Source of the DNA: Candidatus Nanoarchaeia archaeon
Lineage (GTDB): Archaea > Nanobdellota > Nanobdellia > SCGC-AAA011-G17 > GW2011-AR18
Direction: 5' to 3'
DNA: 64,000 nt
Assembly (NCBI GenBank): GCA_035289605.1
Contig: DATDWR010000022.1
Span: 45,295 to 109,294 of the forward strand
Under the pieces are notes generated by a model. That model was not told where the DNA came from, did no database searches, and was given only the letters and a program-made list of their open reading frames with translations. This document shows, in pieces, positions 6,549-45,553 of this stretch. A program made the position numbers and the translations under genes. Numbering within the stretch: position 1 is the first letter of the stretch; every line of letters starts with the position of its first letter.

Positions 6549-6570
6549 TTAATAGATTAAACAGAGTTTA

Positions 6571-6642
6571 AATAATTTACGTATTATATAAGTATAAAAA
6601 GCTTAATAAAAAATAATTTTACGTATTATATAAGTATAAAAA
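6571..6642. promoter_or_regulatory. Two copies of a ~30-bp direct repeat carrying the inverted repeat TACGTA-N5-TAAGTA plus TATA-like sequence, upstream of HTH1
   Basis: aataatttacgtattatataagtataaaaa at 6571-6600 and again at 6612-6642, with a 41-42 bp period. These lie 28-95 nt upstream of the HTH1 start. Same 6-5-6 palindrome type as the array at 27079-27260. Confidence 0.45.
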
Positions 6643-10718: not shown

Positions 10719-10848
10719 CGCCGACGCCAGGATTTGAACCTAGAATTCCTTGCGGAACTAGTTTACTATTCTGGATTCGAGATACATCAACAATCACATT
10801 GCAAGTAGCGAAAGTTTCTAGCGCCTTACCAGATTAGGCTACGTCGGC
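10719..10848 (-). tRNA. tRNA gene with non-canonical intron(s); anticodon not resolved
   Basis: Minus-strand read starts GCCGACG-UA-GCCU-AAUCUGGUA-AGGC-G and ends CUAGG-UUCAAAU-CCUGG-CGUCGGC-G. This gives a perfect 7-bp acceptor stem, a D-arm with GG, a T-arm with a UUCAAAU loop and discriminator G, followed by an oligo-T run. About 80 nt lie between the D- and T-arms, so one or two introns are implied. Confidence 0.55.
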
Positions 10849-15696: not shown

Positions 15697-16374
15697 TTAT
15701 TGATCATCTTTATATTCACCTAATGTCTTTTGTTTTTTAGATTTCTTCCCACTTGCATATTCTTGGTATGGTGCCCATGAGTGTCTGAATATTTCAGGAT
15801 ATTTGTTCCAGTTTTCCTTCAAGAATTGTTTAGTTTTAGGATCAGAGACATACCCAGAACCAAAGTCAATTCCTATTCTCTTTTTTATTAATAAAACTTC
15901 TTCCTCTCTTGCGCACTTTGCTAATATTGAAGCAGCCCCTACAGCAACGAAATTTTTGTCGGCATGGTGTTCACATCTTAGTGAGGAATTTATTTTTATT
16001 TTGTTTTTCAAGAATTGTGCGAATGCTTTTTTATTGTTGCTTGGACAATCAACTACAACTTGGTCTGGCTTAAGATAGTTTATTATTTCAGCCATTTTTT
16101 CCCCTTCCAGAAAATTTAAATTAGAAACTCCATCAGACATTACAGCTTTGTCAACTTCTTCAGGATATACTTTTATTATTTTGTAATCCTTAACAATTTT
16201 CACTATTTCCTTGCAAATCCTTTCTCTCTGTTTTTGCGTCAATAATTTAGAATCTTTTACTCCAATAGACTTCAGTTTATCTAAATCATTTTCTTCTATT
16301 AATACTCCAGCCATTATCATTGGACCTATTACTGGGCCACGGCCAGCATCATCAATACCACAAATTAATGTCAT
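15697..16374 (-). CDS. rnhB: Ribonuclease HII
   Basis: 225 aa. N-terminal GIDDAGRGPVIGPMIMAGV is the RNase HII active-site motif. Confidence 0.85.
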   Translation of the reverse strand: MTLICGIDDAGRGPVIGPMIMAGVLIEENDLDKLKSIGVKDSKLLTQKQRERICKEIVKIVKDYKIIKVYPEEVDKAVMSDGVSNLNFLEGEKMAEIINYLKPDQVVVDCPSNNKKAFAQFLKNKIKINSSLRCEHHADKNFVAVGAASILAKCAREEEVLLIKKRIGIDFGSGYVSDPKTKQFLKENWNKYPEIFRHSWAPYQEYASGKKSKKQKTLGEYKDDQ

Positions 16375-16549
16375 AAAAATTTATCTTTTCTTTATAATAT
16401 AAAACTTTCTAGAACATAAAATAGTCTAAATTATTCTTATAGCTTTCAGAAAGAACCAAACTAGGATTATTAACATACCTATCCAAAAAATTATTACCCA
16501 TAAAGTTGTTCTATATGCACTTTGGCCACTGGACACGACAGGAACGGGC

Positions 16550-17212
16550 GTGGAGTTTATAAATAAAAACTCACTTAATTATAAAATGAAATTGGAAAAA
16601 GAAATATTTTTAGCTTCGCATGTAAGTGCTGATGGTTGGCTATCAAAATATATAGAAAAAAATTGTCTGCAGATAGTTCATGGAAGAAGATATTATAAAA
16701 ATAGAATGAGATATACTATAGGTTATTGTAATAACAATAAGGTTCTGATAGAATTATTTGTGAGAAATATGTTTGATGCTTTTAGTTTAAAACCTAGATA
16801 TGCCAAGAATAAAACCCAAGTAATTTTTAGATCAAAAAGAGTGTATGATCAATTAAAAGAGTTAGGTACAGGGGATAGTTATAATTGGTTTATTCATAAA
16901 TCTGTTTATAAAAGAAAAAGATTAATGCAAATATGGTTGAGATCTTTTTATGATGACGAGTCTACTTTAAATGGTAAAAGAGTAATTGTAGATAGTGTAA
17001 ATAAAAATGGTCTAAGACAAGTAAGTCAGCTATTAAAAAAACTTAAAATTAATCACATTTTCAGAGAATATAATTTCAAGTATAAAGGATTAATAAAGAA
17101 AAGATATAGAATTACTGCTTATAATTTAGAGCAATATTATAATTTAATAGGTTTTAACAATACAGAAAAGAAATCTAAAATTTTAAAGTTGCTAAGGAAA
17201 TACAGAGTATAG
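16550..17212 (+). CDS. Free-standing LAGLIDADG homing endonuclease (double-motif)
   Basis: First motif FLASHVSADGWLS and second motif WLRSFYDDESTL, at the right spacing. ORF opens with GTG at 16550. The more probable start is ATG at 16586 (MKLEKEIF…). Preceded by the conserved 80-nt leader. Confidence 0.75.
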   Translation: MEFINKNSLNYKMKLEKEIFLASHVSADGWLSKYIEKNCLQIVHGRRYYKNRMRYTIGYCNNNKVLIELFVRNMFDAFSLKPRYAKNKTQVIFRSKRVYDQLKELGTGDSYNWFIHKSVYKRKRLMQIWLRSFYDDESTLNGKRVIVDSVNKNGLRQVSQLLKKLKINHIFREYNFKYKGLIKKRYRITAYNLEQYYNLIGFNNTEKKSKILKLLRKYRV

Positions 17213-17220
17213 CGGGAGTT

Positions 17221-17490
17221 CTCCAGAGCAACTTTCGTCAACCCTTTTGGATTTGAACCAACGACCCAACCGTGCTAATAGCATTTCGGGTATCGCAAAG
17301 AGTGCTTAACTCCTTATGAGCCTTCCGCGATAAGACATTCCATCAATTATCTCGACGGACATTTAGGCACTATAAGTGTCTCCTAGTTGGACGTATAAAT
17401 TACTCTGTCCTATCCTTATAGGCCCAAAGGCTCGCTATGGTATCAGCTTTCCGCTACCTCTGCAGAATTCAGAATCCCAGTTATTTTTAT
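17221..17490. ncRNA. GC-rich structured RNA candidate (minus strand favoured); possible reduced RNase P RNA or other structured ncRNA
   Basis: About 270 nt with no ORF and about 45% GC in a roughly 30% GC genome. Ends can pair (UCUGCAGAG / CUCUGGAGA). Minus-strand read contains GCGGAAAGCUGAUACCAUAGCGAGCC (compare RNase P CR-I GGAAAGUCCGGGCUCCAUAGGGCA), CUUAUCG (compare GGCUUAUCGG) and a GGUUCAAAUCC T-loop-like motif. Confidence 0.35.
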
Positions 17491-17533
17491 AAACCTTTTG
17501 TATCTTATTTATCACAGCACTTAAGGTAAAAAG

Positions 17534-18175
17534 ATGTATCAGCAAGTAAACCCAAAAGAGCTGAAGGAAATTGAGAGTAATATAGCTAAAGGTATTAGCC
17601 TTAAAGATAGTTTTAGTTTTGTTAAGACAGTTGCCGCTTTTGATATAGCTTATTCAGAAAAGACTTACAAGTGTGTTGCAGTAGTTATAGATATTGAAAA
17701 CTTAAAGGAATTAGAAGTCAAGCACATAGAGGGAGAAGAAATAATGCCTTATTCTCCAAAGCTGGTAATTTTCAGAGAAGGTCCTGTAATTTTAGAGTCT
17801 TATAGAAGTTTATCCATAAAACCTGACATATTAATAGTTAAGGGTAATGGCTTTATGAAGAAAAGTTCCATAGGTTTGGCTAGTTATGTTGGTGTCTTGC
17901 TTAATAAGCCTGTTATTGGTGTTGCTAAAGAACTTGTTGCTGGCAGGCTTGATGAGGATAAGATTATTGCAAATAATGATGTTGTCGGCTTTGCCTTGAA
18001 GGCCAAGGAGTTTGCAAATCCTGTGTATATCACTCCAGGCCATAATATTTGTTTGGATTCAAGTGTTAAAATAATTAAGAAAGTTCTTTCTCCTTCATAC
18101 AAGCTTCCATTGCCTATGCACATGGCACATAAATATGTTAATAAAATAAAAAAAGAATATATACAAAAGATTTAA
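17534..18175 (+). CDS. nfi: Endonuclease V (deoxyinosine 3' endonuclease)
   Basis: 213 aa. …AAFDIAY… and …ILIVKGNGFMKKSSIGLASYVGVLLNKPVIGVAKE… match EndoV conserved blocks. Confidence 0.8.
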   Translation: MYQQVNPKELKEIESNIAKGISLKDSFSFVKTVAAFDIAYSEKTYKCVAVVIDIENLKELEVKHIEGEEIMPYSPKLVIFREGPVILESYRSLSIKPDILIVKGNGFMKKSSIGLASYVGVLLNKPVIGVAKELVAGRLDEDKIIANNDVVGFALKAKEFANPVYITPGHNICLDSSVKIIKKVLSPSYKLPLPMHMAHKYVNKIKKEYIQKI

Positions 18176-18862: not shown

Positions 18863-21800
18863 TCACTTTTTTAGTTTAACTCTATAATGTTTTTTTGCTT
18901 TTATTGCATCTAAATCTACATTGTATTTATTGTGCGCCAGTATAAGTGCTATCATTAGTAGTAACGCGCCGCTGGCAGTTATTAATGAATAGAATATTAA
19001 TTTTTTTGTGTTGAATCTTCCTCCTGCATATTCTTTCGTCTCTAGTTTGCTGTATTCAGTTTTTGTTTCTTCTTCAGCTGGCTCTTTTCTGCGTTCTATT
19101 CCTACCAAATATAAACTCAATTTGTCGCTTTGTGCTGTATATTTCAGATTTCCGTTTTCTTCTCCATTATAATTAGTTTTTTTAGCAACCCATTTGCTGC
19201 CTTCCAGCCTGAATAATTTTATGTCATTAGGGCTGGCTTTATTATTTGTTATAAACTTCTTTTCTACTAAGAAAACCATTTCTATATCCTTAGCTTCTAT
19301 AGGTTGTATTTGGTTGGTTTGTGATTTGACAGCAAGTATTTCAAATGCTTTGTAAACAATATAATTTTCACTTTCTACATTTTTTTTGATGACCTGCAAT
19401 TTTATTCCCTCTATGTCAATGGACGGTTTGAAGGAGATTTCCATGATGCCTAACTCCCTGTTTTCAGGCTTGTAATTTATTGTAGATCCTCTTTTCGCGT
19501 TTTCTATATTTAAGACATTGGAAGCAGGAGGTAATGATCCTCTTTGTCCTCCGCCTCCTGAGCTTCTTCCTCCGCCTCCTCCATTTCCTTCACTGCTTTT
19601 CGCAGCAGATGTTGAGGGCTCAAACAACCATTCAGTAGCGCACCCGCTGCTTGAAAAGCTAGTATCTATAGTCTCGACGCACCAGAAATATTTTTTGCTG
19701 TTGTCTAATCCCAATGTTATATTACGCATCTGTTGCATGTTGCCGAAGGTGCCTGCTGCTGGTTTGCTTGAAAAACCGAAAACTTCGCTGATCACATCTC
19801 TCGCGCCAGATGAGGATCCTATTCTTAGTCTGTAATACAATCCGTCATTAGGTGTTTCAGTGTCATTTCCTGAAGTCCAGCTGAAATTTATAATATTATC
19901 TGAGTGGTCTATGAAGAAAAGTTGAGGCCTGTTTGGTCTTGTATTCGTATTCTCAATTTTATTTGTGTAAACAAAAGATCTTGCTTGAGAGGAAGTGTTT
20001 CCTGTCAGTATCATGTCCAGCTTTGTGTCGTTGTTTAAATCCATCAATAAAAGCACTGAAAAGTCCAGTGCTGTTAAATTATTGTTTAATGAGCTGTTTG
20101 AAGCAAAGCTTGTGCCGTTGTTTGTGTAAATTTTGGTGATTATGTCTGTGCCTGAACAGCTGGATCCTGTGTTGCATCCTGCTACAGCAAGATCAAGTTT
20201 GCCGTCATTGTTTACGTCGCCCAATTGTGCTTCTCCTCTGGCTGCAGTGTCAAGATCAACTTCCCATGTGGTGTTTCTTACAAAGCCGCTTCCGTTATTC
20301 TGGTAAATAATTCTGAATACAGTTCCGTTGTAGCCGTACCATGCAAGGTCCATGTCCCTGTCATTGTCTATGTCTCCGGATGCTATTGATGCCAATGCTG
20401 ATACAAAATTAACGCTCCATGTGCTGTTTGTCACATAGCTTGTTCCGTTGTTTTCATAAAACTGAGAGAATGGTCCCGAACCGCAATTAGTTGATTCATC
20501 ATTTGTTGATGGGCATCCTGACATGACTAAGTCTAAGTCATTGTCGTTGTCAGCATCTGTAAAAATGCTTGACCCGAATGCAAGGAATGTTATATTATTT
20601 GAGTAAGTATTGTTATAAATGAAAGAAGTTCCGTTGTTTGTGTAAACACCGCCGCTGGAGCTTGGGCAGGAAGTTGAGTTGCATCCTGTAATAAATAAGT
20701 CTATTAGTCCGTCTTCATTGATGTATCCTAATTGCACATTGCCTAAATACAAGTCTGTAGCATTCATTCCCCAGACTCTGTCTTCTGCAAAGCTTGTGCC
20801 GTTGTTAAGGAATACTTGTGTGTATATTGTTTTGTTTGCATCTCTTCCCATAGCAACAAGGTCTGTGTCTCCGTCCCTGTCTATGTCAGCTAACGCTCCT
20901 GAAGGTTGCCCGAGACCAGTTAGGTTTATCCCCCAGCTGTTGTTGACAGCGAGTGCAGTTCCATTATTGATGAACACCTTTCCGAAGCAGTCAGCGCTTC
21001 TGTTTACAGCATAGTCTGTGCAGCTGGAGCTGTCTCCAAAGATTATGACATCATTATAGCTGTCATTGTTTACATCGCCTCCTATTATTGCTCCCTTGAA
21101 TAATGCTGTTAGATTGTCTCCGAACGTGAAATTTTGCAGGAAGAATATATTTATTATGCTTGTAGTTATGTTGATGCTGCTGTTGGCCAGCGCATCGTTG
21201 CTTATGTTTACTCTGATTCCTGCTGTATAGTTTCCTATGGACTTGCTTGCTACTTGTAGTGTTGTCTCAAAGCTTGTTCCCCTTCCGGCAATGTTCCTTA
21301 TTGTAAAATTTGTGCTTGTATCATTAAACATTGCTGTGTCAGCGTTGTTGAAGTTAAATACGTAAACTGTTATGTTTTCTGTCTGGTTTCCGTCTCCGTC
21401 ATTTCTTATGGTTATTGTATAGCTCGTATTTGTGTCTGAATCTATAGTTTTATCAAACAAGTTGGTGCTCACGTTTAATTCTTTTAAATTCAGCAGGCTG
21501 ATCCTGGGCAGGTAGTCATTGGTCACGTTTTTGGCTGTGGTGTTTGTTACATTTACAGGTATGTCGCAGAAATCATTAGTGTTTATATCTAAGCATCCTT
21601 CTATCGGCCTGTCAAATTCCTGCCATAAGTTTCCTCCGCCTTCAGATGATGATGTGTTCCAGCTGTTGTTAAATCCGTCATCTATTATATTGCTTTTGTT
21701 TGTGAAGTTGTTCATGAATATCAGGCTGTTGTTTGTTCCCTTGTCCAAAGTTATAGTGTACCCAAAACATTTGGAAAATGTGTTATTATACATTCTGTTT

Positions 21801-23926
21801 TGTAGTGATCCTTGGCCTGCTATGCAGTCCCCGCCTCCATCGCCTGTGATATTTACATATATAGTATTAAGATAAATGCTGTTATTGTTTGCATTCTGTA
21901 TTTTTATTGCATCGCCTCCTCCTGAAAGCTTGTCTGAATTTGTCATTGTTATATTATTGTTGAAAAGAGAATTATTATTTGAATCTTGAAGCCATACGCC
22001 TATGTCTGTTCCATTAACCCCTATAATATTAGAAATTATATAAGTGTTATTAGAGCCTGTCTGCAGGTATATAGCGTGGCTCGTATTGTCTGTTCCGTTT
22101 ATTTTGTTGAATGTTATGTTATTATATAATGCCTGGCTTGTTGTAATTGCGTAAAAGCGTCCAGACTTTAGTCCTGTTGATATGCTGAAGTTATTGTTGT
22201 TTATTACTGTAAAGCTGGTGTTGCTTACTAGTTCTATAGCTGCCAGGCCTGTACTGCTGGAAGTATACCTTGTTATGTTAAAGAGATTGAAGCTGATATT
22301 AACATTTCTTGAGTTGGAGATGGATGCTATTCCGTATAATATATTGTTGTAAACTAAGTTATTGTCTGCCCTGTTTTGCATTCTTATGGTTATGTTGTTG
22401 CTGTCTATCATATCTATGGTGTTGTTCTCTGCAGTGATATTTCTAGAACCGTCTATGTCTATTCCTAGTCCTTTTCCTGCTATTGTATTGTTTGATATTG
22501 TTATGTTGGATCCGCTGACTTCTATGGCGCTGTCTGCTGTTGTTATTAGTGTTGACATGTTTATCACGTTGTATCTTAGCAGGCTGTTGTTCATGGCTGG
22601 TGATATAATCACTCCATTGGTATTGTCTCTTGTGACTATTAGTGTGTTGTTCTCAAAAGTGTGGTTTGTTCCTGATACAAACCTTACAAGATATCCTCCT
22701 GAAGGGTCTGAATTCGTGCTGAATATCTTATTATGCTTCATGACGCTGTGGTTGTTGTCTATTGATATGCCACTGGTGGTTGTTCCTGATGTTCCTGAGC
22801 CTATAGATGTAAAATTGGAGTTTACAGCATTAAATGTCGTGTTGGGATTTACTTCTATATAATAATTTTTAGTTCCGTCAGCTGTTAATGATGTCAATCT
22901 ACTGTAATTTATGCTTAGGTTGCCGTAATTTTGCAGGTAAAATTCTCCTGTGCTTGAGCTGTTGAAGTTTAATGACACATTGTAGATATTTAGTTCTCCT
23001 CCTGCTATGACTTTTATTATTGCTGTGGATATTACGAATCCTGTGGCATTGTCATAATTAAAAAATCTCGTGTTGTTGATTTCATTGTGTAGTGTCTGCA
23101 TTGTATTTCCTTTGCCTGTTACCTCTATTGTGCTTCCTGACAGGACACTCGGGTCTATTGTTACTGGAAATGAGAGTTGTTCAAACGGCGTGTCAATGAA
23201 CAGGTCAAGAAATAAGCCGTTCTCATTGGACCTGATTGCATATCTTGTATCTACTCTTCTTGGTGCTAGAACATATTGTATTATATCTCCTGATGAATTA
23301 GTTGTATTTATGGTATAGTTGTCATATCCGTATGGCTTGACTATTTCTAATGCCCTGATGTTTCCTATGCTTGTTCTTAAAACAACAGAGCCATGAGAAG
23401 ATGTATAGTTCAATGTATTTGTAACAATTTTGAAAGTAAAATTTCTAGGTGCTGTTCCATTGTGTAATGTTATTGTTTTTCTTATGCCGTATGGCAGAAC
23501 TTCATATTTTATGTCTGTGGCATTATAGGCATTATAGTAAGTTATTGTATTGTCTGTAACGTTTACACTAGTGATATTGTTATTGTTTATGAACTGCATT
23601 GTGATATTTCTTGAGGTTGATAATACTATTGCCTTTATTGTAAAGAATGATTCGTTCACGTCAACAGAGTCATCAAAATCCAGCGACAAAAATCTGCCCA
23701 GGCTGGCATTATAATTCATAATGCCTCCAGCTGATAATGTGGTATTGGCAGTTGCAGCTCCGAATCCCTGATATAGCGTTGATTGGCCGTAAACTGTTAG
23801 AGTGCTTATGATTAAAAAAAATAGGAATAAGAGAGCTAGGTATATTAGTGATTTTTTGTTGTTTGCATTGGCTTTCGTATTGTCGCAGTGCATTCCGCCT
23901 TTTTGATTTTTTATTTTCTTGCTCAT
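18863..23926 (-). CDS. Giant cell-surface glycoprotein SP3: signal anchor, beta-helix repeats, FG-GAP (integrin-alpha-like) repeats, Gly-rich linker, C-terminal TM anchor
   Basis: 1687 aa. N-terminal TM LIYLALLFLFFLIISTLTVYG. Very dense N-x-S/T sequons. Repeated DxDxDGxxD FG-GAP-like units (DIDRDGDTDLV, DADNDNDLDLV, DIDNDRDMDLA, DVNNDGKLDLA). Gly-rich linker GNGGGGGRSSGGGGQRG. C-terminal helix LITASGALLLMIALILA followed by a basic tail. Confidence 0.7.
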   Translation of the reverse strand: MSKKIKNQKGGMHCDNTKANANNKKSLIYLALLFLFFLIISTLTVYGQSTLYQGFGAATANTTLSAGGIMNYNASLGRFLSLDFDDSVDVNESFFTIKAIVLSTSRNITMQFINNNNITSVNVTDNTITYYNAYNATDIKYEVLPYGIRKTITLHNGTAPRNFTFKIVTNTLNYTSSHGSVVLRTSIGNIRALEIVKPYGYDNYTINTTNSSGDIIQYVLAPRRVDTRYAIRSNENGLFLDLFIDTPFEQLSFPVTIDPSVLSGSTIEVTGKGNTMQTLHNEINNTRFFNYDNATGFVISTAIIKVIAGGELNIYNVSLNFNSSSTGEFYLQNYGNLSINYSRLTSLTADGTKNYYIEVNPNTTFNAVNSNFTSIGSGTSGTTTSGISIDNNHSVMKHNKIFSTNSDPSGGYLVRFVSGTNHTFENNTLIVTRDNTNGVIISPAMNNSLLRYNVINMSTLITTADSAIEVSGSNITISNNTIAGKGLGIDIDGSRNITAENNTIDMIDSNNITIRMQNRADNNLVYNNILYGIASISNSRNVNISFNLFNITRYTSSSTGLAAIELVSNTSFTVINNNNFSISTGLKSGRFYAITTSQALYNNITFNKINGTDNTSHAIYLQTGSNNTYIISNIIGVNGTDIGVWLQDSNNNSLFNNNITMTNSDKLSGGGDAIKIQNANNNSIYLNTIYVNITGDGGGDCIAGQGSLQNRMYNNTFSKCFGYTITLDKGTNNSLIFMNNFTNKSNIIDDGFNNSWNTSSSEGGGNLWQEFDRPIEGCLDINTNDFCDIPVNVTNTTAKNVTNDYLPRISLLNLKELNVSTNLFDKTIDSDTNTSYTITIRNDGDGNQTENITVYVFNFNNADTAMFNDTSTNFTIRNIAGRGTSFETTLQVASKSIGNYTAGIRVNISNDALANSSINITTSIINIFFLQNFTFGDNLTALFKGAIIGGDVNNDSYNDVIIFGDSSSCTDYAVNRSADCFGKVFINNGTALAVNNSWGINLTGLGQPSGALADIDRDGDTDLVAMGRDANKTIYTQVFLNNGTSFAEDRVWGMNATDLYLGNVQLGYINEDGLIDLFITGCNSTSCPSSSGGVYTNNGTSFIYNNTYSNNITFLAFGSSIFTDADNDNDLDLVMSGCPSTNDESTNCGSGPFSQFYENNGTSYVTNSTWSVNFVSALASIASGDIDNDRDMDLAWYGYNGTVFRIIYQNNGSGFVRNTTWEVDLDTAARGEAQLGDVNNDGKLDLAVAGCNTGSSCSGTDIITKIYTNNGTSFASNSSLNNNLTALDFSVLLLMDLNNDTKLDMILTGNTSSQARSFVYTNKIENTNTRPNRPQLFFIDHSDNIINFSWTSGNDTETPNDGLYYRLRIGSSSGARDVISEVFGFSSKPAAGTFGNMQQMRNITLGLDNSKKYFWCVETIDTSFSSSGCATEWLFEPSTSAAKSSEGNGGGGGRSSGGGGQRGSLPPASNVLNIENAKRGSTINYKPENRELGIMEISFKPSIDIEGIKLQVIKKNVESENYIVYKAFEILAVKSQTNQIQPIEAKDIEMVFLVEKKFITNNKASPNDIKLFRLEGSKWVAKKTNYNGEENGNLKYTAQSDKLSLYLVGIERRKEPAEEETKTEYSKLETKEYAGGRFNTKKLIFYSLITASGALLLMIALILAHNKYNVDLDAIKAKKHYRVKLKK

Positions 23927-27078: not shown

Positions 27079-27260
27079 TACTTACATAATAAGTATATAT
27101 TACTTACTTATTAAGTAGATAAAACATAATAATAAATATAAATACTTACATAATAAGTATATAATTTTTTAATTTAATTATATATAATATTAAATGATTA
27201 TTACTTACAAAATAAGTAAAATAGATAAATTTATATATAAAATTACTTACTTAATAAGTA
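27079..27260. promoter_or_regulatory. Array of five inverted-repeat operators TACTTAC-N3-(A/T)TAAGTA (6-5-6 palindrome TACTTA-N5-TAAGTA) plus TATA box upstream of HTH2
   Basis: Units at 27079-27095, 27101-27117, 27143-27159, 27202-27218 and 27244-27260. TTTATATATA sits at about -35 to -26 from the ATG. The last unit lies between the TATA box and the start codon. Confidence 0.5.
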
Positions 27261-27264
27261 AAAA

Positions 27265-27828
27265 ATGAATAAAAGAGATAGATATAGTAATTTTTCTAGA
27301 GATTTTGCTAGTTCTAAAAATACAGAAGCAATAAATTTGTTCTTAAAGTTTTTAGAGAAAGAAAAAGATTATGCAAAGAATAATATCGAAGAAGTAATAG
27401 AAATTGTAAAAAATCTTGAAGAAAAAAAATCTTTCAATGGCTCTTTGCCTTGCAATATTTTCAATGTGAAGGAACTAAGTTCTTTAGAAATAATAGCGAA
27501 ATATATCAGGGAGGAATTTAGTCTTTCTTATCATGAAATTGCAGTAATCCTTAACAGAGACGATAGGACTATTTGGTCAACTTACAATAATTCTCTTAAA
27601 AAATATAACAGAAAACTTGAGTGGCAGGGATCAAAATATTTTATTCCTGTTTCAATATTCAAAGATAGGGTATTCGGGGTTTTGGAATTAATTTGCGAAT
27701 ATCTGAAGGATAATTTTTCTCTTTCATACCATGATGTAGCTGTGATTGTAAACAGGAATGATAGGACTGTGTGGACTGCATATCAAAGGGCTAAGAAAAA
27801 GAGGTTAAATGAAAAACTACGACGCTAA
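27265..27828 (+). CDS. Small DNA-binding protein with tandem sigma-70-region-4-like HTH repeats (HTH2, paralogue of 6027..6548)
   Basis: 187 aa. Repeats …LEIIAKYIREEFSLSYHEIAVILNRDDRTIWSTYNNSLKKY… and …LELICEYLKDNFSLSYHDVAVIVNRNDRTVWTAYQRAKKKR…. The 3' end overlaps the SP2 start by 20 nt. Confidence 0.6.
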   Translation: MNKRDRYSNFSRDFASSKNTEAINLFLKFLEKEKDYAKNNIEEVIEIVKNLEEKKSFNGSLPCNIFNVKELSSLEIIAKYIREEFSLSYHEIAVILNRDDRTIWSTYNNSLKKYNRKLEWQGSKYFIPVSIFKDRVFGVLELICEYLKDNFSLSYHDVAVIVNRNDRTVWTAYQRAKKKRLNEKLRR

Positions 27829-30800
27829 AAGAGAAGCAGCTGGGCTGAGAAGGGAGATTCAGCTTATTGAGAACAGAAAGTTAGAGGTAGTTAATGCAGT
27901 TGAATCTCTAAGAAACCAGTATTATCAAGGATTGTTAGGATATGAAGATTACAAGGAAAGAATTAATAGGTCGCTGCAGGGACTTACTCCAAGGCAGACT
28001 CTTGACAAGTATAACGAGCAGATAAGGTCATGTAAAGAAAAGATTTCAAGACTTGAAAGCGTAAGAAGTGGTGTGCAGTTAAATGGTAACGTGCTTGTAG
28101 TTGTATTACTTCTTGTTGCTGCTCTGTCTTCAGTTCTTATATTGGCGAATGCAAAGTATGACTTGTTTGGTTTAGATAGTCCTGTAGGTTTCGTAGTTAA
28201 GGATGTTACAAATGATTCATTACTAAATATAACAGAAATAGTGCCAAAACCAGAAAATAATATTTCAATTAAGGATAGTGGGGAACCTGTAATAAATGAA
28301 ACCCTGAATAATATGACAGAGTCAGTGCTTGCGCAAGAGAAAAATATCTCTAAAGAAAGTGAAAATGTAACTGTAGAAGAAAATAAAACAAAATCAGAAG
28401 ATAAAAAGAAATACAGTATAGATAATGCAACAATACCTGAGGTTCCTGAGTTTGTAAAATCTAATAAATCTATAAAGGAAATTGTTGATGAAGTAGGAAT
28501 AAGTGTCCCTGTAGAAAAGATAGTGAGTATAGACAGGCTTAGTTTTGCAGCAGATGAGATAACAGTTAAAGGAAAAGATCTTAAAACATTGGTGATACAT
28601 AAGCCTATTATCTATGGAAAATCTTTCGGAGAAGCTATACCTTTAGTAGAAAAAGACGACTTTACATATGCGGCATCACTTGAGGACACTGCTGTAGAAC
28701 TTGAATTTGATTCTCCAGAAATAAAGAATGATAAGTTAGGAAGAAAATTCAGGCAGAGCAAAATATTAGGTGATCCTTCTTGGAAGATAGGATATAATTA
28801 CTTGCTTCCTGCAGGAGACTTTAATGCCACAGTAAGGTTCAGCTCAAGCACACCTATTAATGTTGAAGATAAATATTATGGAAGGTTTGTAACAGGTAAG
28901 TTTACTTTGGATTTTGGAGCTGAAAGAGAAAATGGATTTAATATAGAAATAGAGCAGGTGCACAGCAATATTGTTTACATTAGCCTTATTAAAAATTACA
29001 CAGATGCAGGACTCAAGCCTAATGACGAAGTATTCATTGATCCTACATTATCTATTAGTAGTCTTGTATATTTATGTGGAGAAGTCATTGACTATGATAA
29101 GATAGAAGTTATGAGTAATGGTATTCTTGGTATATGCAACAGAACAGCTACTAATCCTACAGGTTATGTTAATATTACTTTGGATAATGGAATCGAGGGT
29201 AATTTTACTGTTCATCCTTCTGGAAGGATAGGTGGTGGTGGTGCTGGAGGCAGAGCAGGTGCTGGAGAGGTAACTGCTGCAACATGTTCTACTCGAGGAG
29301 AGAATAATACAGGCCAGACAGGTGCTGCTGGTTGCGTAGCCAACTGGGGAGGAGGTTCTGGCACGCAGAGAGCATCTACAGGCGATAGTGCAGGTGGCGG
29401 AGGTGGAGGTTTTGGAGGTGCTGGAGGCAGGGGAGGTCGTAGTGCAGCTGATGAAGGTTATGTTCCTTCCAACGTTACAGGATCTGCTGATGATACATAT
29501 TTGTTTATGGGTGCTGGTGGTGGTGGAAGCAATGGTGATAATCCAGCAGCAGCAGGAGGTCCTGGAGGTGGGGGTATTAAGATAAGTGCAGGTGCTGGAT
29601 GGATCGGTATTAGAGGTATACTTAATGTTTCAGGACAGAATGGTAGTAATGGTGATGGTACTGATAATTCTGGAGGTGGAGGCGGCAGCGGAGGTCACGT
29701 TATATTAAGTGCAAAGACTATTCTTATGGATTCTAATACCAAGATTTTCGCTCATGGTTCTGGCGGTGGAATTGCTGGAGGAACTGGAGATGCCTGCGGT
29801 GGTGGAAGTGGTGGTGGCGGAAGAGTATTGTTTATTTATGAGTCTCTTTCAAACACTAGTTCGTTTGTATCAATTTATGGAGGTGTAGCTCAACTAGCTA
29901 ATTCAGATGCTGCATGCGATGCTGCTTCAGATCCTGGAGATCCAGAAGCAGGTGGAATTGGTAGCGTTTTGTATAATTCAACAACTACAACATTTGCAGA
30001 CTATCCTAGACCATTATTGAACAACCCCACAGATAATGAAGTAATTGTTGCAAAATCTAGTGTTAATATTAGTTTCAACTTTACTCCTATGATTGGGGAT
30101 AATAATTTTAAGAGTGCTACAATTTATGCAGATTGGAACAAGGGAGTGTTCGGAGCGAATAACACAAACAGAACTGCATTAACTAGCGGGTCAAATACAA
30201 TTATTAATGTTTCAGGTATAGCTAATGGTACTTGGACTTGGAATGTTTATATTTGTGATGAAGCAAATAACTGCAGGTTTAACAGTACTAATTATACTTT
30301 AGTGTTCAATAATGCTCCTAATATAACAAATGTATCTATACTGCCTGCTGATACAAATACTAGTGATACTTTGCTTGCAAATATAAGTGGTTTGTTTGAC
30401 TTTGATGGAGATAATATGGTGGAGGTTAATAATGTGAGTTATAACTGGTATGTTAACCAGACGCCTTTATTGCTGTTAAATATGCCTTTCACTAATCACA
30501 TTTATTCCAAGGATAATTTTACAACATTTGACTTTAGTGATAATGTGTTAGCAGGAACAGTGTATGCTGCTAAGCAGGGTACTTATGGTTCTGGACTGCC
30601 TAAATATACTACAGACAACTGTACTATTGGTGGCTGCTACAGGTTTAACGGCACTAATTATATTAACATTAGCGATCCTTTAAACAAAACTTTGGGAATG
30701 AGAGACTGGAGTATATTGTTCTGGTATGATGCAGAGCAGAGTAGAGTTATAGATGAGATAGCATTAGGCAGTTGGAATGTAGTTTACTCTAGAAGAGAGG

Positions 30801-33250
30801 GAATAAATGATGCAGCATTTATTGGTTTAGAAGTTCAAGTTGGAAGAGATTATCTTAGTGGAGGTAATGCAGCAAACTTTATTGTATTCGTTTATTACAG
30901 AAACAGGACATTGAGTGGGGATAACCTAAAATTCAGGGACACTTCTGCAGCAAACAAAACTAGGTTTATAGCTATACTGAGAGATGGAGATACAGGAAAT
31001 ACTAGTGTTTTATTCAATGGTACATCAATAGATAGCCAGAGTGGTATATTCGGCCCGCTTGTAAATAATATTACTACTTTATATTCAACTTTAGGTATTC
31101 CATCAATATCAGGTTCTGGAGGCAGAGGATTAAATGGTACAATTGACGAGTTCCAGATATATAATAGAACATTAAGTGTTGAAGAAGTTTACCAGATATA
31201 TAACAACGGTAAGGGCAATTACAGTTTAATGGTTCAGGAAGAAACAGCAGTGGATGAAGTCTGGAATGTTACAGCAGTTCCAGTTGATAAAACAGGTGCG
31301 AATGGATCAATGGTTAGGTCCACTAGTGTTACAATTATAAGTACAGACCCTCCGACAGTTAATTTAAATTACCCTATTTCAATAATACCCGGAACAAAAC
31401 CTACCATAATTGATCCTAGATTTAATATTAGCTTTAATTTCACGCCTACAGCAGGAGGTAACAGTTTAAAGAATGCAACTATTTGGGGTAACTGGAGTAA
31501 TGGCGTACAAAAACCGAATGCTACAAACATTTACTCATTGGAAAATAATGCTCCTTCATATATTAACGTCTCAGGCATTCCTAATGGTACTTGGTCATGG
31601 ACAGTTTACGTATGCGATACAGCACATCGTTGTGCATACAATACATCAAATGTAACATTTGTTGCAAATAATGCGCCTAATATTTCCATTGTTAAAATAC
31701 TTCCTTCAGATATATCTGTGGGAGATAATTTAACAGCAAACTTAACAAAACTTGTAGATGAAGATGGAAACTATCAGGTTAACCATAACAATATTAGTTA
31801 TAATTGGTACAACAATCAGACATCAATTACCTTGCTTAATGTACCATTTACTAATCCAATATATTCAAAGGATAATTTTTCAACATTTGATTTCAGCGGC
31901 TACAATCACAATTTATCCTCTTATGACCTGGCATGGGATGCTTCCACTGGTGCCCAATATACAAATGAGAACTGTACAATTGGAGGTTGTTATAGATTCA
32001 ACGGAAGTATAGATTCATTCTTGCAGATAAGGAATATTACAGGAGTAGGGGCTCCAAATGAATTGTTGGGAATGGTAAATTGGAGTATGATATTTTGGTA
32101 TGATCCTGAAGGAAAGGTAAGAGATAACGTTGATGGAAACGAGAGAATAATATATGATGCAAGCGGCGGCACACCTACAGGATATAGTCCTAGAGTGGCA
32201 ACTCTTCTAAACTCGCCTCAACTACAAATAAAAGTATACATAACAAACACAAGTCTTGACCAGTTTTCCGCAACATTTTCTTCAAATCCTCAGCTTGGCA
32301 ATCCTCAAAAGAAGTTTATTGCTGTAATAAGAAATGGAAATACTGGTAACGTTACTGTCATATTTAATGGGACACAATCAACAAGTTCATCTGCATCTTA
32401 TGGTCCTATGGTTAATGCTACATGGTTGGATGGTTCAGTGATTACTATAGGAGGAAAATCAGGAGGAACTAATGACGATATTAATGGCACTCTTGATGAG
32501 TTCATGATTTTTAACAGAACTTTGACTCCTGAGCAGGTCTATGAATTTTATAATAACCATATCGGTAATTACAGCAAGATAGTAAACCAAGAGTTGAAAG
32601 CAGGAGAAATTTGGAATGTTACAGCAGTTCCTATTGACAATGATGGACTGAATGGTTCAATGATCAGATCAGCAAATATAACTATACCTACTGCGGCACA
32701 GCCTACAGCAATATCTTGCATATGGAGTGATGCAGCATTAAACATTAGTTTCGGTGAAGGATTATCTCAGTCCTTATCCCAAGGAGTTATATATAATGCT
32801 TCTAAGAACTTCGAAGGTTATATTGGTGGAAGCAATCAAAATGTAGGTATTAACTGGACCCATTATAATGTGACAGCAGACTCTACAAATACAGCTCCAG
32901 TTAACATAACTATAAAGGGAGATCATTTATTGTCAGGATCAAATGTTTTGGGTATTACAAACATTACTTGGATGACTAATGAAACTAATGGTAATGCTAC
33001 AGATGTGTCTGGAGAGTTATGGAACTTCACATATTTGGGCAAGAACGTGAAAGATTCAAACTTTGAGGGATTCAACTTGACTTTAATAAAAGATGGTGAT
33101 CCTAAGTTGGCAGTAAGAAACAGGAACTTCTCAAACCAGTTGACAGCAGGAAGCAGTATGTGGTACAGGTTTTGGCTGCATGTTCCTACAGCTCAGATAC
33201 AGGGAAGTTATGTGGGTAATTACACAATGGAGTGCAGTGCAGCATCATAA
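27809..33250 (+). CDS. Giant cell-surface glycoprotein SP2: N-terminal coiled-coil + signal anchor, Gly-rich region, two tandem ~430-aa modules each ending in a LamG/ConA-like lectin domain
   Basis: 1813 aa. TM VLVVVLLLVAALSSVLILANA follows about 95 charged residues. Gly-rich tracts (GGGGAGGRAGAGE…, GGGGGGFGGAGGRGG…). Duplicated modules NNAPNI(T/S)…YNWY(V/N)NQT…CTIGGCYRFNG…W(S/M)I(L/F)FWYD…DEF(Q/M)I(Y/F)NRTL(S/T)(V/P)E(E/Q)VY(Q/E)(I/F)YNN… carry the LamG-type LDEV(R)IYNRALS-like motif. Confidence 0.7.
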   Translation: MKNYDAKREAAGLRREIQLIENRKLEVVNAVESLRNQYYQGLLGYEDYKERINRSLQGLTPRQTLDKYNEQIRSCKEKISRLESVRSGVQLNGNVLVVVLLLVAALSSVLILANAKYDLFGLDSPVGFVVKDVTNDSLLNITEIVPKPENNISIKDSGEPVINETLNNMTESVLAQEKNISKESENVTVEENKTKSEDKKKYSIDNATIPEVPEFVKSNKSIKEIVDEVGISVPVEKIVSIDRLSFAADEITVKGKDLKTLVIHKPIIYGKSFGEAIPLVEKDDFTYAASLEDTAVELEFDSPEIKNDKLGRKFRQSKILGDPSWKIGYNYLLPAGDFNATVRFSSSTPINVEDKYYGRFVTGKFTLDFGAERENGFNIEIEQVHSNIVYISLIKNYTDAGLKPNDEVFIDPTLSISSLVYLCGEVIDYDKIEVMSNGILGICNRTATNPTGYVNITLDNGIEGNFTVHPSGRIGGGGAGGRAGAGEVTAATCSTRGENNTGQTGAAGCVANWGGGSGTQRASTGDSAGGGGGGFGGAGGRGGRSAADEGYVPSNVTGSADDTYLFMGAGGGGSNGDNPAAAGGPGGGGIKISAGAGWIGIRGILNVSGQNGSNGDGTDNSGGGGGSGGHVILSAKTILMDSNTKIFAHGSGGGIAGGTGDACGGGSGGGGRVLFIYESLSNTSSFVSIYGGVAQLANSDAACDAASDPGDPEAGGIGSVLYNSTTTTFADYPRPLLNNPTDNEVIVAKSSVNISFNFTPMIGDNNFKSATIYADWNKGVFGANNTNRTALTSGSNTIINVSGIANGTWTWNVYICDEANNCRFNSTNYTLVFNNAPNITNVSILPADTNTSDTLLANISGLFDFDGDNMVEVNNVSYNWYVNQTPLLLLNMPFTNHIYSKDNFTTFDFSDNVLAGTVYAAKQGTYGSGLPKYTTDNCTIGGCYRFNGTNYINISDPLNKTLGMRDWSILFWYDAEQSRVIDEIALGSWNVVYSRREGINDAAFIGLEVQVGRDYLSGGNAANFIVFVYYRNRTLSGDNLKFRDTSAANKTRFIAILRDGDTGNTSVLFNGTSIDSQSGIFGPLVNNITTLYSTLGIPSISGSGGRGLNGTIDEFQIYNRTLSVEEVYQIYNNGKGNYSLMVQEETAVDEVWNVTAVPVDKTGANGSMVRSTSVTIISTDPPTVNLNYPISIIPGTKPTIIDPRFNISFNFTPTAGGNSLKNATIWGNWSNGVQKPNATNIYSLENNAPSYINVSGIPNGTWSWTVYVCDTAHRCAYNTSNVTFVANNAPNISIVKILPSDISVGDNLTANLTKLVDEDGNYQVNHNNISYNWYNNQTSITLLNVPFTNPIYSKDNFSTFDFSGYNHNLSSYDLAWDASTGAQYTNENCTIGGCYRFNGSIDSFLQIRNITGVGAPNELLGMVNWSMIFWYDPEGKVRDNVDGNERIIYDASGGTPTGYSPRVATLLNSPQLQIKVYITNTSLDQFSATFSSNPQLGNPQKKFIAVIRNGNTGNVTVIFNGTQSTSSSASYGPMVNATWLDGSVITIGGKSGGTNDDINGTLDEFMIFNRTLTPEQVYEFYNNHIGNYSKIVNQELKAGEIWNVTAVPIDNDGLNGSMIRSANITIPTAAQPTAISCIWSDAALNISFGEGLSQSLSQGVIYNASKNFEGYIGGSNQNVGINWTHYNVTADSTNTAPVNITIKGDHLLSGSNVLGITNITWMTNETNGNATDVSGELWNFTYLGKNVKDSNFEGFNLTLIKDGDPKLAVRNRNFSNQLTAGSSMWYRFWLHVPTAQIQGSYVGNYTMECSAAS

Positions 33251-44490: not shown

Positions 44491-44754
44491 ATGGATGAGA
44501 ATAAATCGCTTGTAGTTTTTCAGAATAAGAAGATTAGAAGAATTTGGCATAATAATGAGTGGTTTTTTTCTGTTGTTGATATAATAGCAATTCTGACAGA
44601 ACAAAAGGATTTTCAAATAGCAAGAAAATATTGGAATAAGCTAAGTCAAAGACTTAAAGAGGAAGGAAGCGAAACGGTTACAATTTGTCACCAATTGAAA
44701 TTGATAGCTGAAGATAGAAAATTAAGAGAAACAGATTGCGCAAGGATATATTAA
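44491..44754 (+). CDS. Bro-N/KilA-N-like DNA-binding domain protein (mobile-element/viral type)
   Basis: 87 aa. …LVVFQNKKIRRIWHNNEWFFSVVDIIAILT… fits the Bro-N pattern (F..IR….G..WF…D.A..L). Confidence 0.4.
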   Translation: MDENKSLVVFQNKKIRRIWHNNEWFFSVVDIIAILTEQKDFQIARKYWNKLSQRLKEEGSETVTICHQLKLIAEDRKLRETDCARIY

Positions 44755-44872
44755 GTATTATAAAAAAAGTTTTGAGTGTAGATAAATAATCAAAAAATGA
44801 AATTAAGTTTCCGTTGGACACGACACAAGAAACGCACGCCAGATTTATAAACAATAAAAATATTATAAATTA

Positions 44873-45553
44873 ATGAAATTAACAGAACAAGATATTAAAA
44901 ATTTGTATGAAGAGGTTAATGATTTAACTGATAATTTTAAGAGTATTAGCCCGGTTATAATTTTGCATAATACAAATTGGTTTAAAATATTAAATCTATT
45001 AAAAGAAAGCTATAGATCAGCAAATGAATTAACCTCAATTAGTTATAGTATGGGTGGCATAAAAAATAATGAAAATATGATTAAATATATAGCAATGAAA
45101 TATTGGCTACTTGTGAATTATTCAGGACATAAAACAAAAAGTAAATTTTTAGATAAATTTTTATATAATGGGGAGATATTTATTAGCAAGTTATTGGATG
45201 AATTAAAAATTGATCACAAATCTCAGTATATAATAAAAAATTCTATCTGTGGATATAATATTCCAAGATTAGTAGATGAATTTATATATCCAAATAAAGT
45301 GATTGAAATAAAGAATATTGATATGTTATCTGAAAACAATTTAAAAACGAATCAGGGACCAATTTTCGAATTAATAGGACAATTTATGTCATTAAACAAA
45401 TTTAATCCCGAATACAAGTTTATAACTATAATATCAGACAAAGATGACAAAATTAATAAGTTGCCACAAAGAGTATTTGATTCATTAAATATGCATGGAA
45501 TATATTCGATTTATACACTTGACAATTTAGAGGAGCTAAAAAATGTTGTCTGA
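44873..45553 (+). CDS. Hypothetical protein preceded by the conserved 80-nt leader (possible nuclease)
   Basis: 226-aa ORF with no clear motif. Shares its 5' leader and MKL start with the LAGLIDADG gene. Confidence 0.35.
   Translation: MKLTEQDIKNLYEEVNDLTDNFKSISPVIILHNTNWFKILNLLKESYRSANELTSISYSMGGIKNNENMIKYIAMKYWLLVNYSGHKTKSKFLDKFLYNGEIFISKLLDELKIDHKSQYIIKNSICGYNIPRLVDEFIYPNKVIEIKNIDMLSENNLKTNQGPIFELIGQFMSLNKFNPEYKFITIISDKDDKINKLPQRVFDSLNMHGIYSIYTLDNLEELKNVV

What the first reader, a model, noticed from the sequence alone, without database searches (positions are those of the whole stretch)
16518..16600. Conserved ~80-nt 5' leader shared by two unrelated ORFs (copy A, upstream of the LAGLIDADG endonuclease)
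About 75% identity over roughly 80 nt between 16518-16600 and 44808-44890. This includes an identical GGACACGACA decamer, AACG…CG…AG.TTTATAAA, and the first codons ATGAAATT (MKL…). The downstream proteins are unrelated: a LAGLIDADG homing endonuclease versus a 226-aa unknown protein. The copy A ORF formally opens with GTG inside the leader. A shared structured leader on two possibly selfish nuclease genes could be a mobile promoter/5'UTR cassette, a regulatory RNA element, or a recombination or homing-site remnant.
Basis: seen in the sequence. Interest (0 to 1): 0.65.

Follow-up and report, generated by a model that had tools for sequence, protein, structure and literature searches.

The report
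Shared promoter heading swappable endonuclease genes
The two look-alike stretches are not RNA leaders but two copies of a conserved archaeal promoter (a 14-base upstream box plus BRE/TATA, starting a leaderless mRNA) that in Woesearchaeota-type DPANN archaea mostly precedes free-standing LAGLIDADG homing-endonuclease genes, and the gene behind it has been swapped between related genomes.

Summary
The similarity is real. TGGACACGACA, a CG dinucleotide, purines, TTTATAAA and an ATG 21-22 nt later occur at 16530-16588 and 44815-44875. The "5' leader" reading is wrong. In this genome a TATA box about 30 nt upstream of the ATG is the normal geometry of leaderless mRNAs, so the TATA, the A-rich spacer and ATGAAA are generic. 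No RNA structure is supported.

The specific part lies upstream of the TATA: a box (C)ACTG-GACACGACA, a 15-18 nt GC-rich spacer and a BRE-like CG-NN-RRR. I found 24 distinct copies in Woesearchaeota/Nanoarchaeia genomes and metagenomes. Six are in one genome (GW2011_AR18). Two were found without using the motif. About 18 precede LAGLIDADG genes of many unrelated architectures, inserted next to tRNA, 5S rRNA, tRNA-synthetase and ribosomal-protein genes.

In two pairs of related genomes, flanking homology runs through the promoter, stops about 5 nt after the TATA, and in one pair resumes at the adjacent tRNA gene. Different endonuclease genes sit in between.

Best reading: a family-specific promoter, with the box as a probable factor-binding site, that forms the fixed 5' boundary of an exchangeable homing-endonuclease gene slot. 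Copy B drives an ORFan in such a slot. I found no published description.

The parts
16527..16540 (+). Copy A distal box CACTGGACACGACA, 15 nt upstream of the TATA box
   Evidence: The 14-mer is identical in L013, L131, L135 and the AR18 copies. L131 and L135 were found by synteny, not by the motif.
16541..16555 (+). Copy A spacer GGAACGGG plus BRE-like CGTGGAG (C at -7 and G at -6 from the TATA, then purines). The formal GTG start at 16550 lies inside it.
   Evidence: the CG is invariant in 22 copies although the search pattern did not require it. The spacer resembles those of L131 and L077.
16556..16563 (+). Copy A TATA box TTTATAAA, 22 nt before the ATG (leaderless geometry)
16586..17212 (+). 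Free-standing two-motif LAGLIDADG endonuclease gene (208 aa; motifs LASHVSADG and LRSFYDDES). Its stop codon overlaps the 3' end of the convergent tRNA.
   Evidence: LAGLIDADG_3, 21 bits, just below cut-off; orthologs at 72%
17210..17455 (-). Multi-intron tRNA(CAT) gene, the 3' boundary of the exchangeable slot. Homology with relatives resumes here.
   Evidence: It was missed by ARAGORN and Rfam. After in silico removal of the inserts it folds as tRNA-Met(cat).
44812..44825 (+). Copy B distal box CGTTGGACACGACA (2 mismatches in the CACTG part)
44826..44843 (+). Copy B 18-nt spacer CAAGAAACGCA plus BRE-like CGCCAGA. GCACGCCAGATTTATAAA is identical to the L011 LAGLIDADG promoter.
44844..44851 (+). 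Copy B TATA box TTTATAAA, 21 nt before the ATG
44873..45553 (+). 226-aa ORFan in the slot behind copy B. It overlaps the AlaRS start by 11 nt.
   Evidence: no homolog in 5.8 billion proteins; pLDDT 39
44491..44754 (+). 87-aa N-terminal fragment of an Ant/Bro-like protein (full length 277 aa in AR18), truncated just upstream of copy B
   Evidence: 49% identity to the L126 277-aa protein; phrog_15286, positions 4-83 of 274
15697..16374 (-). RNase HII, the conserved left flank of the slot
17534..18175 (+). Endonuclease V, the conserved right flank beyond the tRNA

Best explanation
Each copy is a complete archaeal promoter for a leaderless mRNA. It consists of a TATA box TTTATAAA 20-25 nt before the ATG, a BRE-like CG-NN-RRR directly upstream, and, 15-18 bp further upstream, an invariant asymmetric 14-bp box (C)ACTG-GACACGACA. 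In Woesearchaeota/Nanoarchaeia-type DPANN archaea this module mostly heads free-standing LAGLIDADG homing-endonuclease genes that sit beside highly conserved informational genes (tRNA, 5S rRNA, MetRS, AlaRS, ribosomal proteins). Shown: the geometry, the recurrence, the association with LAGLIDADG genes, and the fact that the module is the fixed 5' boundary of a slot whose ORF has been replaced between related genomes. Inferred: the box is the binding site of a sequence-specific protein (activator or repressor) that co-regulates these potentially toxic genes. Also inferred: the conserved promoter acts as the upstream homology arm for ORF exchange, with the adjacent conserved gene (here the tRNA) as the other arm. 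Copy A drives a resident LAGLIDADG gene between RNase HII and a multi-intron tRNA(CAT)/EndoV. Copy B drives an ORFan placed between a truncated Ant-like gene and AlaRS.
For: Geometry: TATA-like boxes cluster 26-34 nt upstream of ATGs in this genome, in 12 of 48 genes. In 20 of 22 element copies an ATG lies 19-25 nt after the TATA. Recurrence: the pattern scan of 596 Gb of genomes gave 38 hits. Eleven were in archaea, ten of them in DPANN archaea and showing every extra shared feature, including 6 in archaeon GW2011_AR18; the eleventh (L040, Methanosarcinales) is a chance match. Metagenomes added 8 distinct copies. Two further copies, L131 and L135, were found through EndoV synteny without using the motif. 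Features the pattern did not require are conserved: CACTG, CG at -7/-6, and the ATG spacing. Only TATA-part matches occur elsewhere in the window. Association: about 18 of 24 copies precede LAGLIDADG proteins that are only 20-30% identical to one another and have different added HTH domains. Slot exchange: L099 and L135 are about 97% identical over 330 nt up to about 5 nt past the TATA, then unrelated, and carry different LAGLIDADG genes. For the window against L131 (EndoV 81% identical), homology covers RNase HII and the element (16500-16569), is lost over 16570-17201, and resumes at 17202, the tRNA 3' end; the genes are 208 aa and a non-orthologous 265 aa. The RNase HII-EndoV slot holds at least 4 non-orthologous LAGLIDADG types, or none. 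Stable syntenic residence also occurs: L024, L118 and L020 all lie upstream of MetRS. Block-wise conservation (invariant box, variable spacer, conserved CG and TATA) is what protein-binding sites look like.
Against: No transcription start, binding protein or nuclease activity has been measured, so the factor-binding role of the box is inference. The exact GACACGACA, AG and TTTATAAA were required by the search pattern, so their invariance is partly ascertainment; only L131 and L135 are unbiased. One ortholog (L133) lacks the element, so it is not obligatory. Six copies precede other things: an Lhr helicase, the ORFan, an unknown protein, small ORFs, a 5S rRNA, and one contig end. Spacer length varies by 3 bp, which is awkward for a rigid activator-TFB contact. 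The spacer is near-identical among unrelated genes within AR18 but differs between genomes. That could reflect gene conversion rather than selection.
Confidence: 0.7

Rival explanations
1. Generic promoter similarity or chance. The two regions resemble each other only because both are AT-rich archaeal promoters with BRE/TATA and a Met-Lys start.
For: The TATA, the A-rich spacer and ATGAAA are generic. Other promoter pairs in the window score as high overall. The A/B pair leads only narrowly when just the TATA-upstream part is compared.
Against: The 14-bp box plus the CG is absent from all other promoters in the window. It recurs with the same spacing in 22 other loci from different genomes, including orthologs and two loci found without the motif.
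Confidence: 0.02
2. Structured 5' leader or cis-regulatory RNA. The element is transcribed, for example from the AT-rich box about 20 nt upstream of CACTG, and folds to control translation.
For: Many copies have a second AT-rich, TATA-like block (CATAAAATA, CATTTTATT) about 43 bp upstream of the main TATA. That block could in principle start a transcript near the box. T4 endonuclease genes are regulated by RNA hairpins (PMC2988022).
Against: Folding energies are not better than shuffles and the folds differ between A and B. RNAalifold finds 0 consensus pairs in 22 copies. There is no Rfam match. The strictly kept TATA-to-ATG distance argues for leaderless initiation. The upstream AT block varies in orientation and is missing in several copies, including WB.
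Confidence: 0.03
3. The box is a recognition site for a DNA-cutting or DNA-recombining enzyme rather than a transcription factor. It could be the target of one of the endonucleases, or an attI-like site of a recombinase, with breaks there driving ORF exchange and homogenising the copies.
For: Exchange junctions lie within a few nt of the element. Copies in one genome are near-identical, including the spacer, although the genes are unrelated. An orthologous gene has a different promoter subtype in a sister genome (L024 versus L118). LAGLIDADG enzymes recognise 14-40 bp asymmetric sites (general knowledge).
Against: The site is intact in every endonuclease-bearing genome, so it would be self-cleaved. 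It is shared by endonucleases too divergent to share specificity. No integrase or recombinase gene is seen next to the copies. The observed junction is after the TATA, not in the box.
Confidence: 0.12
4. Autoregulation by a LAGLIDADG-derived DNA-binding protein, analogous to bacterial WhiA or to I-TevI. One or more of the LAGLIDADG-HTH paralogs binds the GACAC-containing box and represses or activates the whole family.
For: WhiA, which has a degenerate LAGLIDADG fold plus an HTH, binds the asymmetric motif GACAC, including at its own promoter (PMC3781837 and PMC10243135). The box contains GACAC-GACA(C). Many downstream proteins carry added HTH or winged-helix domains, some with weak sigma-70 region 4-like matches. 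I-TevI is an autorepressor (PMC2988022).
Against: A 5-nt match is weak evidence. No WhiA-specific Pfam domains were found in the downstream proteins. The window genome's own LAGLIDADG protein has no HTH. WhiA is not known in archaea.
Confidence: 0.12

Closest known systems
Free-standing homing endonuclease genes of T4-type phages (seg/mob; 'intronless homing'), e.g. segB in the tRNA gene cluster
   Same: Endonuclease genes sit in intergenic regions between conserved genes, each with an endonuclease-specific promoter. They vary in presence and type between related genomes, lie next to the conserved genes that are their likely targets (including tRNA genes), and host-gene promoters can be embedded in them (PMC2988022). 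Here, a TTTATACA box about 33 nt upstream of the AlaRS ATG lies inside the ORFan.
   Different: This is a cellular archaeal genome, not a phage. The family is LAGLIDADG rather than GIY-YIG or HNH. All cassettes share one highly conserved promoter with a distal box, across different genomes. No mobility or cleavage has been demonstrated.
PeSL (promoter-early stem-loop) mobile regulatory cassettes of T4-type phages
   Same: A short conserved promoter sequence is repeated at many loci in front of variable, often ORFan, genes. Insertion, deletion and replacement differences between close relatives have their junctions at the cassette, attributed to recombination between copies (PMC2839356; PMC4122927).
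   Different: PeSLs pair a sigma-70 promoter with a terminator stem-loop. Here there is no stem-loop, the promoter is an archaeal BRE/TATA type with an upstream box, the cargo is mostly one protein superfamily, and mini-circles are not testable.
WhiA-GACAC and I-TevI operator (endonuclease-fold proteins acting as transcription regulators at their own promoters)
   Same: An asymmetric GACAC-containing site lies upstream of genes encoding LAGLIDADG-fold proteins with HTH domains. It offers a precedent for autoregulation of endonuclease genes.
   Different: No WhiA domains were detected. The system is archaeal. The similarity is 5 nt and has not been tested.
Archaeal upstream activating or operator sites next to BRE/TATA (e.g. 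Ptr2 UAS in Methanocaldococcus; from memory, not checked here)
   Same: A specific site sits directly upstream of BRE/TATA at a fixed distance, which suits recruitment or occlusion of TBP/TFB.
   Different: Known sites are usually dyad-symmetric and belong to metabolic or stress regulons. This box is asymmetric and tied to selfish-type genes. Its binding factor is unknown.

Membership tests
Archaeal BRE/TATA promoter of a leaderless mRNA | TATA box centred about 26-27 nt upstream of the transcription start, which coincides with the start codon | tested here: met
   TTTATAAA ends 22 nt (A) and 21 nt (B) before the ATG, and 19-25 nt in 20 of 22 copies. The same geometry holds in 12 of 48 window genes.
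Archaeal BRE/TATA promoter of a leaderless mRNA | Purine-rich BRE directly upstream of the TATA (cRnaAnt-like; consensus from memory) | tested here: met
   CG-NN-RRR, with C-7 and G-6 invariant in 22 copies though not required by the search. Function was not tested.
Archaeal BRE/TATA promoter of a leaderless mRNA | Mapped transcription start | not testable with these tools
   No transcript data are available.
Free-standing homing endonuclease gene cassette | Endonuclease-family ORF in an intergenic position between conserved host genes, not in an intron or intein | tested here: met
   LAGLIDADG_3/_2 matches. Positions are between RNase HII and tRNA/EndoV, upstream of MetRS, between the L10 and L12 genes, and next to 5S rRNA and tRNA genes. 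No group I intron was found.
Free-standing homing endonuclease gene cassette | Presence/absence or replacement polymorphism between related genomes | tested here: met
   At least 4 non-orthologous types, or none, occupy the same slot. Sharp junctions are seen.
Free-standing homing endonuclease gene cassette | Catalytic acidic residues in both LAGLIDADG motifs | tested here: met
   By inspection only..VSADG.. and ..YDDES.. in the window protein, and GDG/DEG-type motifs in the others.
Free-standing homing endonuclease gene cassette | Site-specific cleavage of the endonuclease-less allele, followed by gene conversion | not testable with these tools
   Needs enzyme assays or crosses.
PeSL-type mobile regulatory cassette | Conserved promoter repeated at many loci of one genome in front of variable genes | tested here: met
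   6 copies in GW2011_AR18, 5 of them with a near-identical 37-nt core, in front of unrelated genes.
PeSL-type mobile regulatory cassette | Terminator stem-loop coupled to the promoter | tested here: not met
   No significant fold and 0 consensus pairs.
PeSL-type mobile regulatory cassette | Rearrangement junctions at the cassette | tested here: met
   L099/L135 and window/L131.
cis-regulatory RNA leader | Conserved secondary structure with covariation, located in the transcribed 5' UTR | tested here: not met
   The conserved part is upstream of the predicted transcription start.
WhiA regulon-type operator | GACAC site bound by a WhiA-family protein (WhiA_N, LAGLIDADG_WhiA, HTH_WhiA domains) | tested here: not met
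   GACAC is present, but no WhiA Pfam domains appeared in the downstream proteins: none in the ten scanned individually at E<=0.05, and none among the 25 of 34 families displayed for all 19 at E<=0.01. Binding is not testable.
Integron-like attI/cassette system | Site-specific recombinase gene adjacent to the promoter and site | tested here: not met
   No integrase or recombinase appears among the called genes around the copies. This was not an exhaustive genome-wide test.

The most novel reading that the evidence does not exclude
Woesearchaeota-type archaea carry a promoter-bounded, exchangeable gene-slot system. An invariant 14-bp box plus BRE/TATA would be both the operator of a dedicated regulator (possibly itself LAGLIDADG-HTH derived, as WhiA is in bacteria) and the upstream recombination landmark. 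Through it, diverse LAGLIDADG endonuclease ORFs, and occasional ORFans such as the 226-aa protein, would be swapped in and out beside tRNA, 5S rRNA, synthetase and ribosomal-protein genes. Gene conversion would keep the promoter copies of one genome identical. This would be the first cellular, archaeal counterpart of phage PeSL/seg-mob cassettes and a defined regulon for selfish nucleases.
Probability: 0.3. Interest if true: 0.75.

Novelty: new variant of a known kind. Interest (0 to 1): 0.6.

Why it matters
Very little is known about transcription signals and regulators in DPANN archaea. This gives a sharply defined, multi-copy promoter with an invariant 14-bp box whose binding factor can be sought by DNA-affinity pull-down or DAP-seq with heterologously expressed proteins. 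It also shows that these reduced genomes carry families of free-standing LAGLIDADG endonuclease genes parked beside their most conserved genes, and that the ORFs are exchanged at a fixed promoter boundary. That is a phage-like mode of modular evolution in a cellular genome, and a possible source of new long-target nucleases. In practice the motif is a good marker for finding such cassettes, and the intron-rich stable-RNA genes next to them that standard tools miss.

Tried and rejected
- RNA structure. Single-sequence folds of both copies were not significant, alifold on 22 copies gave no pairs, and Rfam gathering and E<=10 scans gave nothing. Rejected.
- Inverted copy of the box downstream of the gene, as in a BHB-intron-like element. 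No minus-strand copy lies near 17213-17533.
- Viral origin. Two IMG/VR scans returned only unrelated phage coding sequences.
- Function of the 226-aa ORFan. Pfam, PHROGs, the 5.8-billion-protein search and AF2 (pLDDT 39) were all uninformative. I did not run a fold search because the model is unusable.
- PDB sequence search with the window LAGLIDADG protein: no hit at E<=1.
- Other LAGLIDADG genes in the window: none.
- Literature. Searches for the motif, for LAGLIDADG+DPANN and for homing endonuclease+Woesearchaeota found no description of this promoter.
- Dyad symmetry or an ORB-like reading of CTCCACTGGA. The left arm is not conserved across copies, so I dropped it (the ORB consensus was from memory only).
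- Distal motifs further upstream (ATTTCC-N3-GGAAAT, GATTTTCGGAA repeats). They occur only in subsets of copies and I did not pursue them.
- Methanosarcinales hit L040. It lacks all other shared features and is a chance match.

Full report
**Observation**

The two stretches are as described. Copy A reads CACTGGACACGACA (16527-16540), GGAACGGG, CGTGGAG, TTTATAAA (16556-16563), 22 nt, then ATG (16586). Copy B reads CGTTGGACACGACA (44812-44825), CAAGAAACGCA, CGCCAGA, TTTATAAA (44844-44851), 21 nt, then ATG (44873). The 11-mer TGGACACGACA occurs only at these two places in the window. A local alignment scores 23, against 11.3 +/- 2.0 for shuffles.

Inside the window this is only modestly exceptional. 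The pair ties for 4th among 1275 pairs of upstream regions. It ranks first, but narrowly, when only the sequence upstream of TATA boxes is compared.

**What is generic**

The window is a 33% GC archaeal genome. The sources name the organism "Candidatus Nanoarchaeia archaeon", and it comes from Rifle aquifer samples. Many of its genes have TTTATAAA, TTTAAATA or TTTATATA starting 26-34 nt upstream of the ATG: 12 of 48 genes, with a clear peak. This is the geometry of leaderless archaeal mRNAs.

So the TATA box, the A-rich 21-22 nt spacer and ATGAAA are ordinary. The "leader" is not transcribed from this promoter. The GTG at 16550 lies inside the BRE-like segment, and the orthologs start at the ATG.

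RNA folding is not better than shuffled sequence and differs between the copies. RNAalifold on 22 copies predicts no pairs. Rfam has nothing.

**What is specific**

The part upstream of the TATA is conserved far beyond this genome.

- The two LAGLIDADG orthologs at 72% protein identity (L011, L013) carry the same box, a CG at -7/-6 and the TATA. The 3' half of the L011 promoter (GCACGCCAGATTTATAAA) is identical to copy B rather than to copy A.
- A pattern scan of one genome per species gave 38 hits. Eleven were in archaea. Ten of these, all in DPANN archaea, have every additional shared feature: six in archaeon GW2011_AR18, three in Woesearchaeota and one in Nanoarchaeota. The eleventh (L040, Methanosarcinales) and the other 27 look like chance matches.
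- Metagenomes added eight distinct copies.
- IMG/VR viral contigs gave none.
- Two more copies (L131, L135) were found through EndoV synteny without using the motif, and both have the exact 14-mer.

Features the pattern did not demand are conserved: CACTG, the CG, and an ATG 19-25 nt after the TATA in 20 of 22 copies. The spacer between them varies in sequence and is 15-18 nt long. A profile of the element finds only the two copies in the window; everything else matches just the TATA part.

**What follows the element**

About 18 of the 24 distinct copies precede LAGLIDADG-type proteins. These proteins share only 20-30% identity. Their architectures range from plain two-motif enzymes to versions with 1-4 N-terminal HTH modules or C-terminal winged helices.

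The exceptions are:
- the 226-aa ORFan of copy B;
- an unknown protein (L036);
- an Lhr helicase (L046/L090);
- small ORFs (L019);
- a solo element upstream of a 5S rRNA gene (L077);
- a contig end (L080).

The cassettes sit beside highly conserved genes:
- a tRNA (window, L072);
- 5S rRNA (L030, L077);
- MetRS (L020, L024, L118);
- AlaRS (copy B);
- ribosomal protein genes (L033, L048);
- a MiaB-like enzyme (L100).

In three cases the endonuclease ORF ends on the 3' end of a convergent stable-RNA gene. One of these is in the window. The 246-nt conserved block at 17210-17455 (minus strand) is a tRNA(CAT) gene with several introns. ARAGORN and Rfam both miss it. After in silico removal of the inserts it folds as tRNA-Met(cat).

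**Exchange of the ORF**

Three comparisons show that the gene behind the promoter is replaced between related genomes.

- L099 and L135 are about 97% identical for 330 nt upstream, through the box and the TATA. They become unrelated about 5 nt after the TATA and carry non-orthologous LAGLIDADG genes.
- The window and L131 (EndoV 81% identical) share RNase HII and the element (16500-16569). They lose all similarity over 16570-17201 and regain it at 17202, the tRNA 3' end. The window has a 208-aa enzyme and L131 a 265-aa enzyme of another type.
- Across relatives, the RNase HII-tRNA-EndoV slot holds at least four non-orthologous LAGLIDADG types, other genes, or nothing.

Some cassettes are also stably syntenic: the HTH-LAGLIDADG gene upstream of MetRS is found in three genomes.

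Within GW2011_AR18, five copies in front of unrelated genes share a near-identical 37-nt core including the spacer. The ortholog of a sixth AR18 gene has a different promoter subtype in a sister genome. This suggests conversion between copies.

At copy B the upstream 87-aa ORF is an N-terminal fragment of a 277-aa Ant-like protein. That is consistent with a rearrangement at the 5' edge of the element.

**Interpretation**

The element is a family-specific promoter. Its block-wise conservation (invariant asymmetric box, free spacer, fixed CG and TATA) is the signature of protein binding. I infer a regulator that controls these potentially toxic genes together.

The junction data show that the promoter is also the fixed 5' edge of an exchangeable slot. 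The simplest mechanism is homologous recombination, using the promoter on one side and the conserved neighbour gene on the other.

Two alternatives cannot be excluded. The box could be the site of a nuclease or recombinase. Or the regulator could itself be a LAGLIDADG-HTH protein: bacterial WhiA, which has a LAGLIDADG fold plus an HTH, binds GACAC (PMC3781837 and PMC10243135). No WhiA domains were detected here.

**Comparison with known systems**

The closest analogues are the free-standing seg/mob endonuclease genes of T4, which have their own promoters and include segB among tRNA genes (PMC2988022). [quoted passage not shown]

This case differs in four ways. It is cellular and archaeal. It is LAGLIDADG-based. 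It lacks a stem-loop. It uses one conserved BRE/TATA promoter with a distal box across several genomes. Literature searches found no description of it.

**Verdict**

- The "shared structured leader" reading is rejected.
- The "mobile promoter cassette on selfish nuclease genes" reading is supported and sharpened.
- It is a new variant of a known kind, of moderate to high interest.

Noticed in passing
window 17210-17455 (minus strand): A conserved 246-nt tRNA(CAT) gene interrupted by several inserts (introns at non-canonical positions). ARAGORN and Rfam both miss it. Relatives have different numbers of inserts (alignment A5). After in silico removal of the inserts it folds as tRNA-Met(cat). The palindromic TTTATAAA at 17486-17493 lies about 30 nt upstream of it and also upstream of EndoV on the other strand.
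   Followed up: partly
window 10719-10848 (minus strand): An intron-containing tRNA (130 nt), found by Rfam (42.8 bits) but not by ARAGORN.
   Followed up: no
window 44491-44754: The 87-aa ORF is only the N-terminal third of an Ant/Bro-like protein family (phrog_15286; 277 aa in GW2011_AR18, L126). It is a truncated gene remnant directly upstream of copy B.
   Followed up: partly
window 45510-45517, inside the ORFan 3' end: A TTTATACA box lies about 33 nt upstream of the AlaRS ATG (45543). The AlaRS promoter may therefore be embedded in the ORFan, an arrangement that favours retention of endonuclease genes in T4.
   Followed up: no
L100 679-2916: A winged-helix plus LAGLIDADG-like ORF behind the element reads on, in frame, into a MiaB-like radical-SAM methylthiotransferase (745 aa in total). 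This is either a fusion or a lost stop codon.
   Followed up: no
L077 206-494 and L030 4282-5148: In L077 a solo element, followed only by a 21-aa ORF, lies upstream of a 5S rRNA gene. In the related L030 a LAGLIDADG gene behind the element abuts the 3' end of the 5S rRNA gene from the other side. The shared flanking genes are in inverted order relative to the element.
   Followed up: partly
window 6563-6642 and 27086-27266; also upstream of 6030(-) and 27809(+): AT-rich repeats containing ATTACTTAC..AATAAGTA inverted motifs lie upstream of two gene clusters. The ends of the genes preceding the 1013-aa and 1813-aa proteins are similar to each other and gave the highest-scoring upstream pair in the window.
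   Followed up: no
L011 1880-1925, L047, L013, L020, L024, L099, L118 upstream regions: Further upstream motifs appear in subsets of copies: repeats of GATTTTCGGAA / TTCTGAAAATC and ATTTCC-N3-GGAAAT. They may be additional factor sites.
   Followed up: no
window 18863-23926 (minus) and 27809-33250 (plus): Two very large, repeat-rich secreted or surface-type proteins (1687 and 1813 aa). The first has beta-helix/FG-GAP hits. The second contains Gly-rich and 1.35-kb internal repeats.
   Followed up: no
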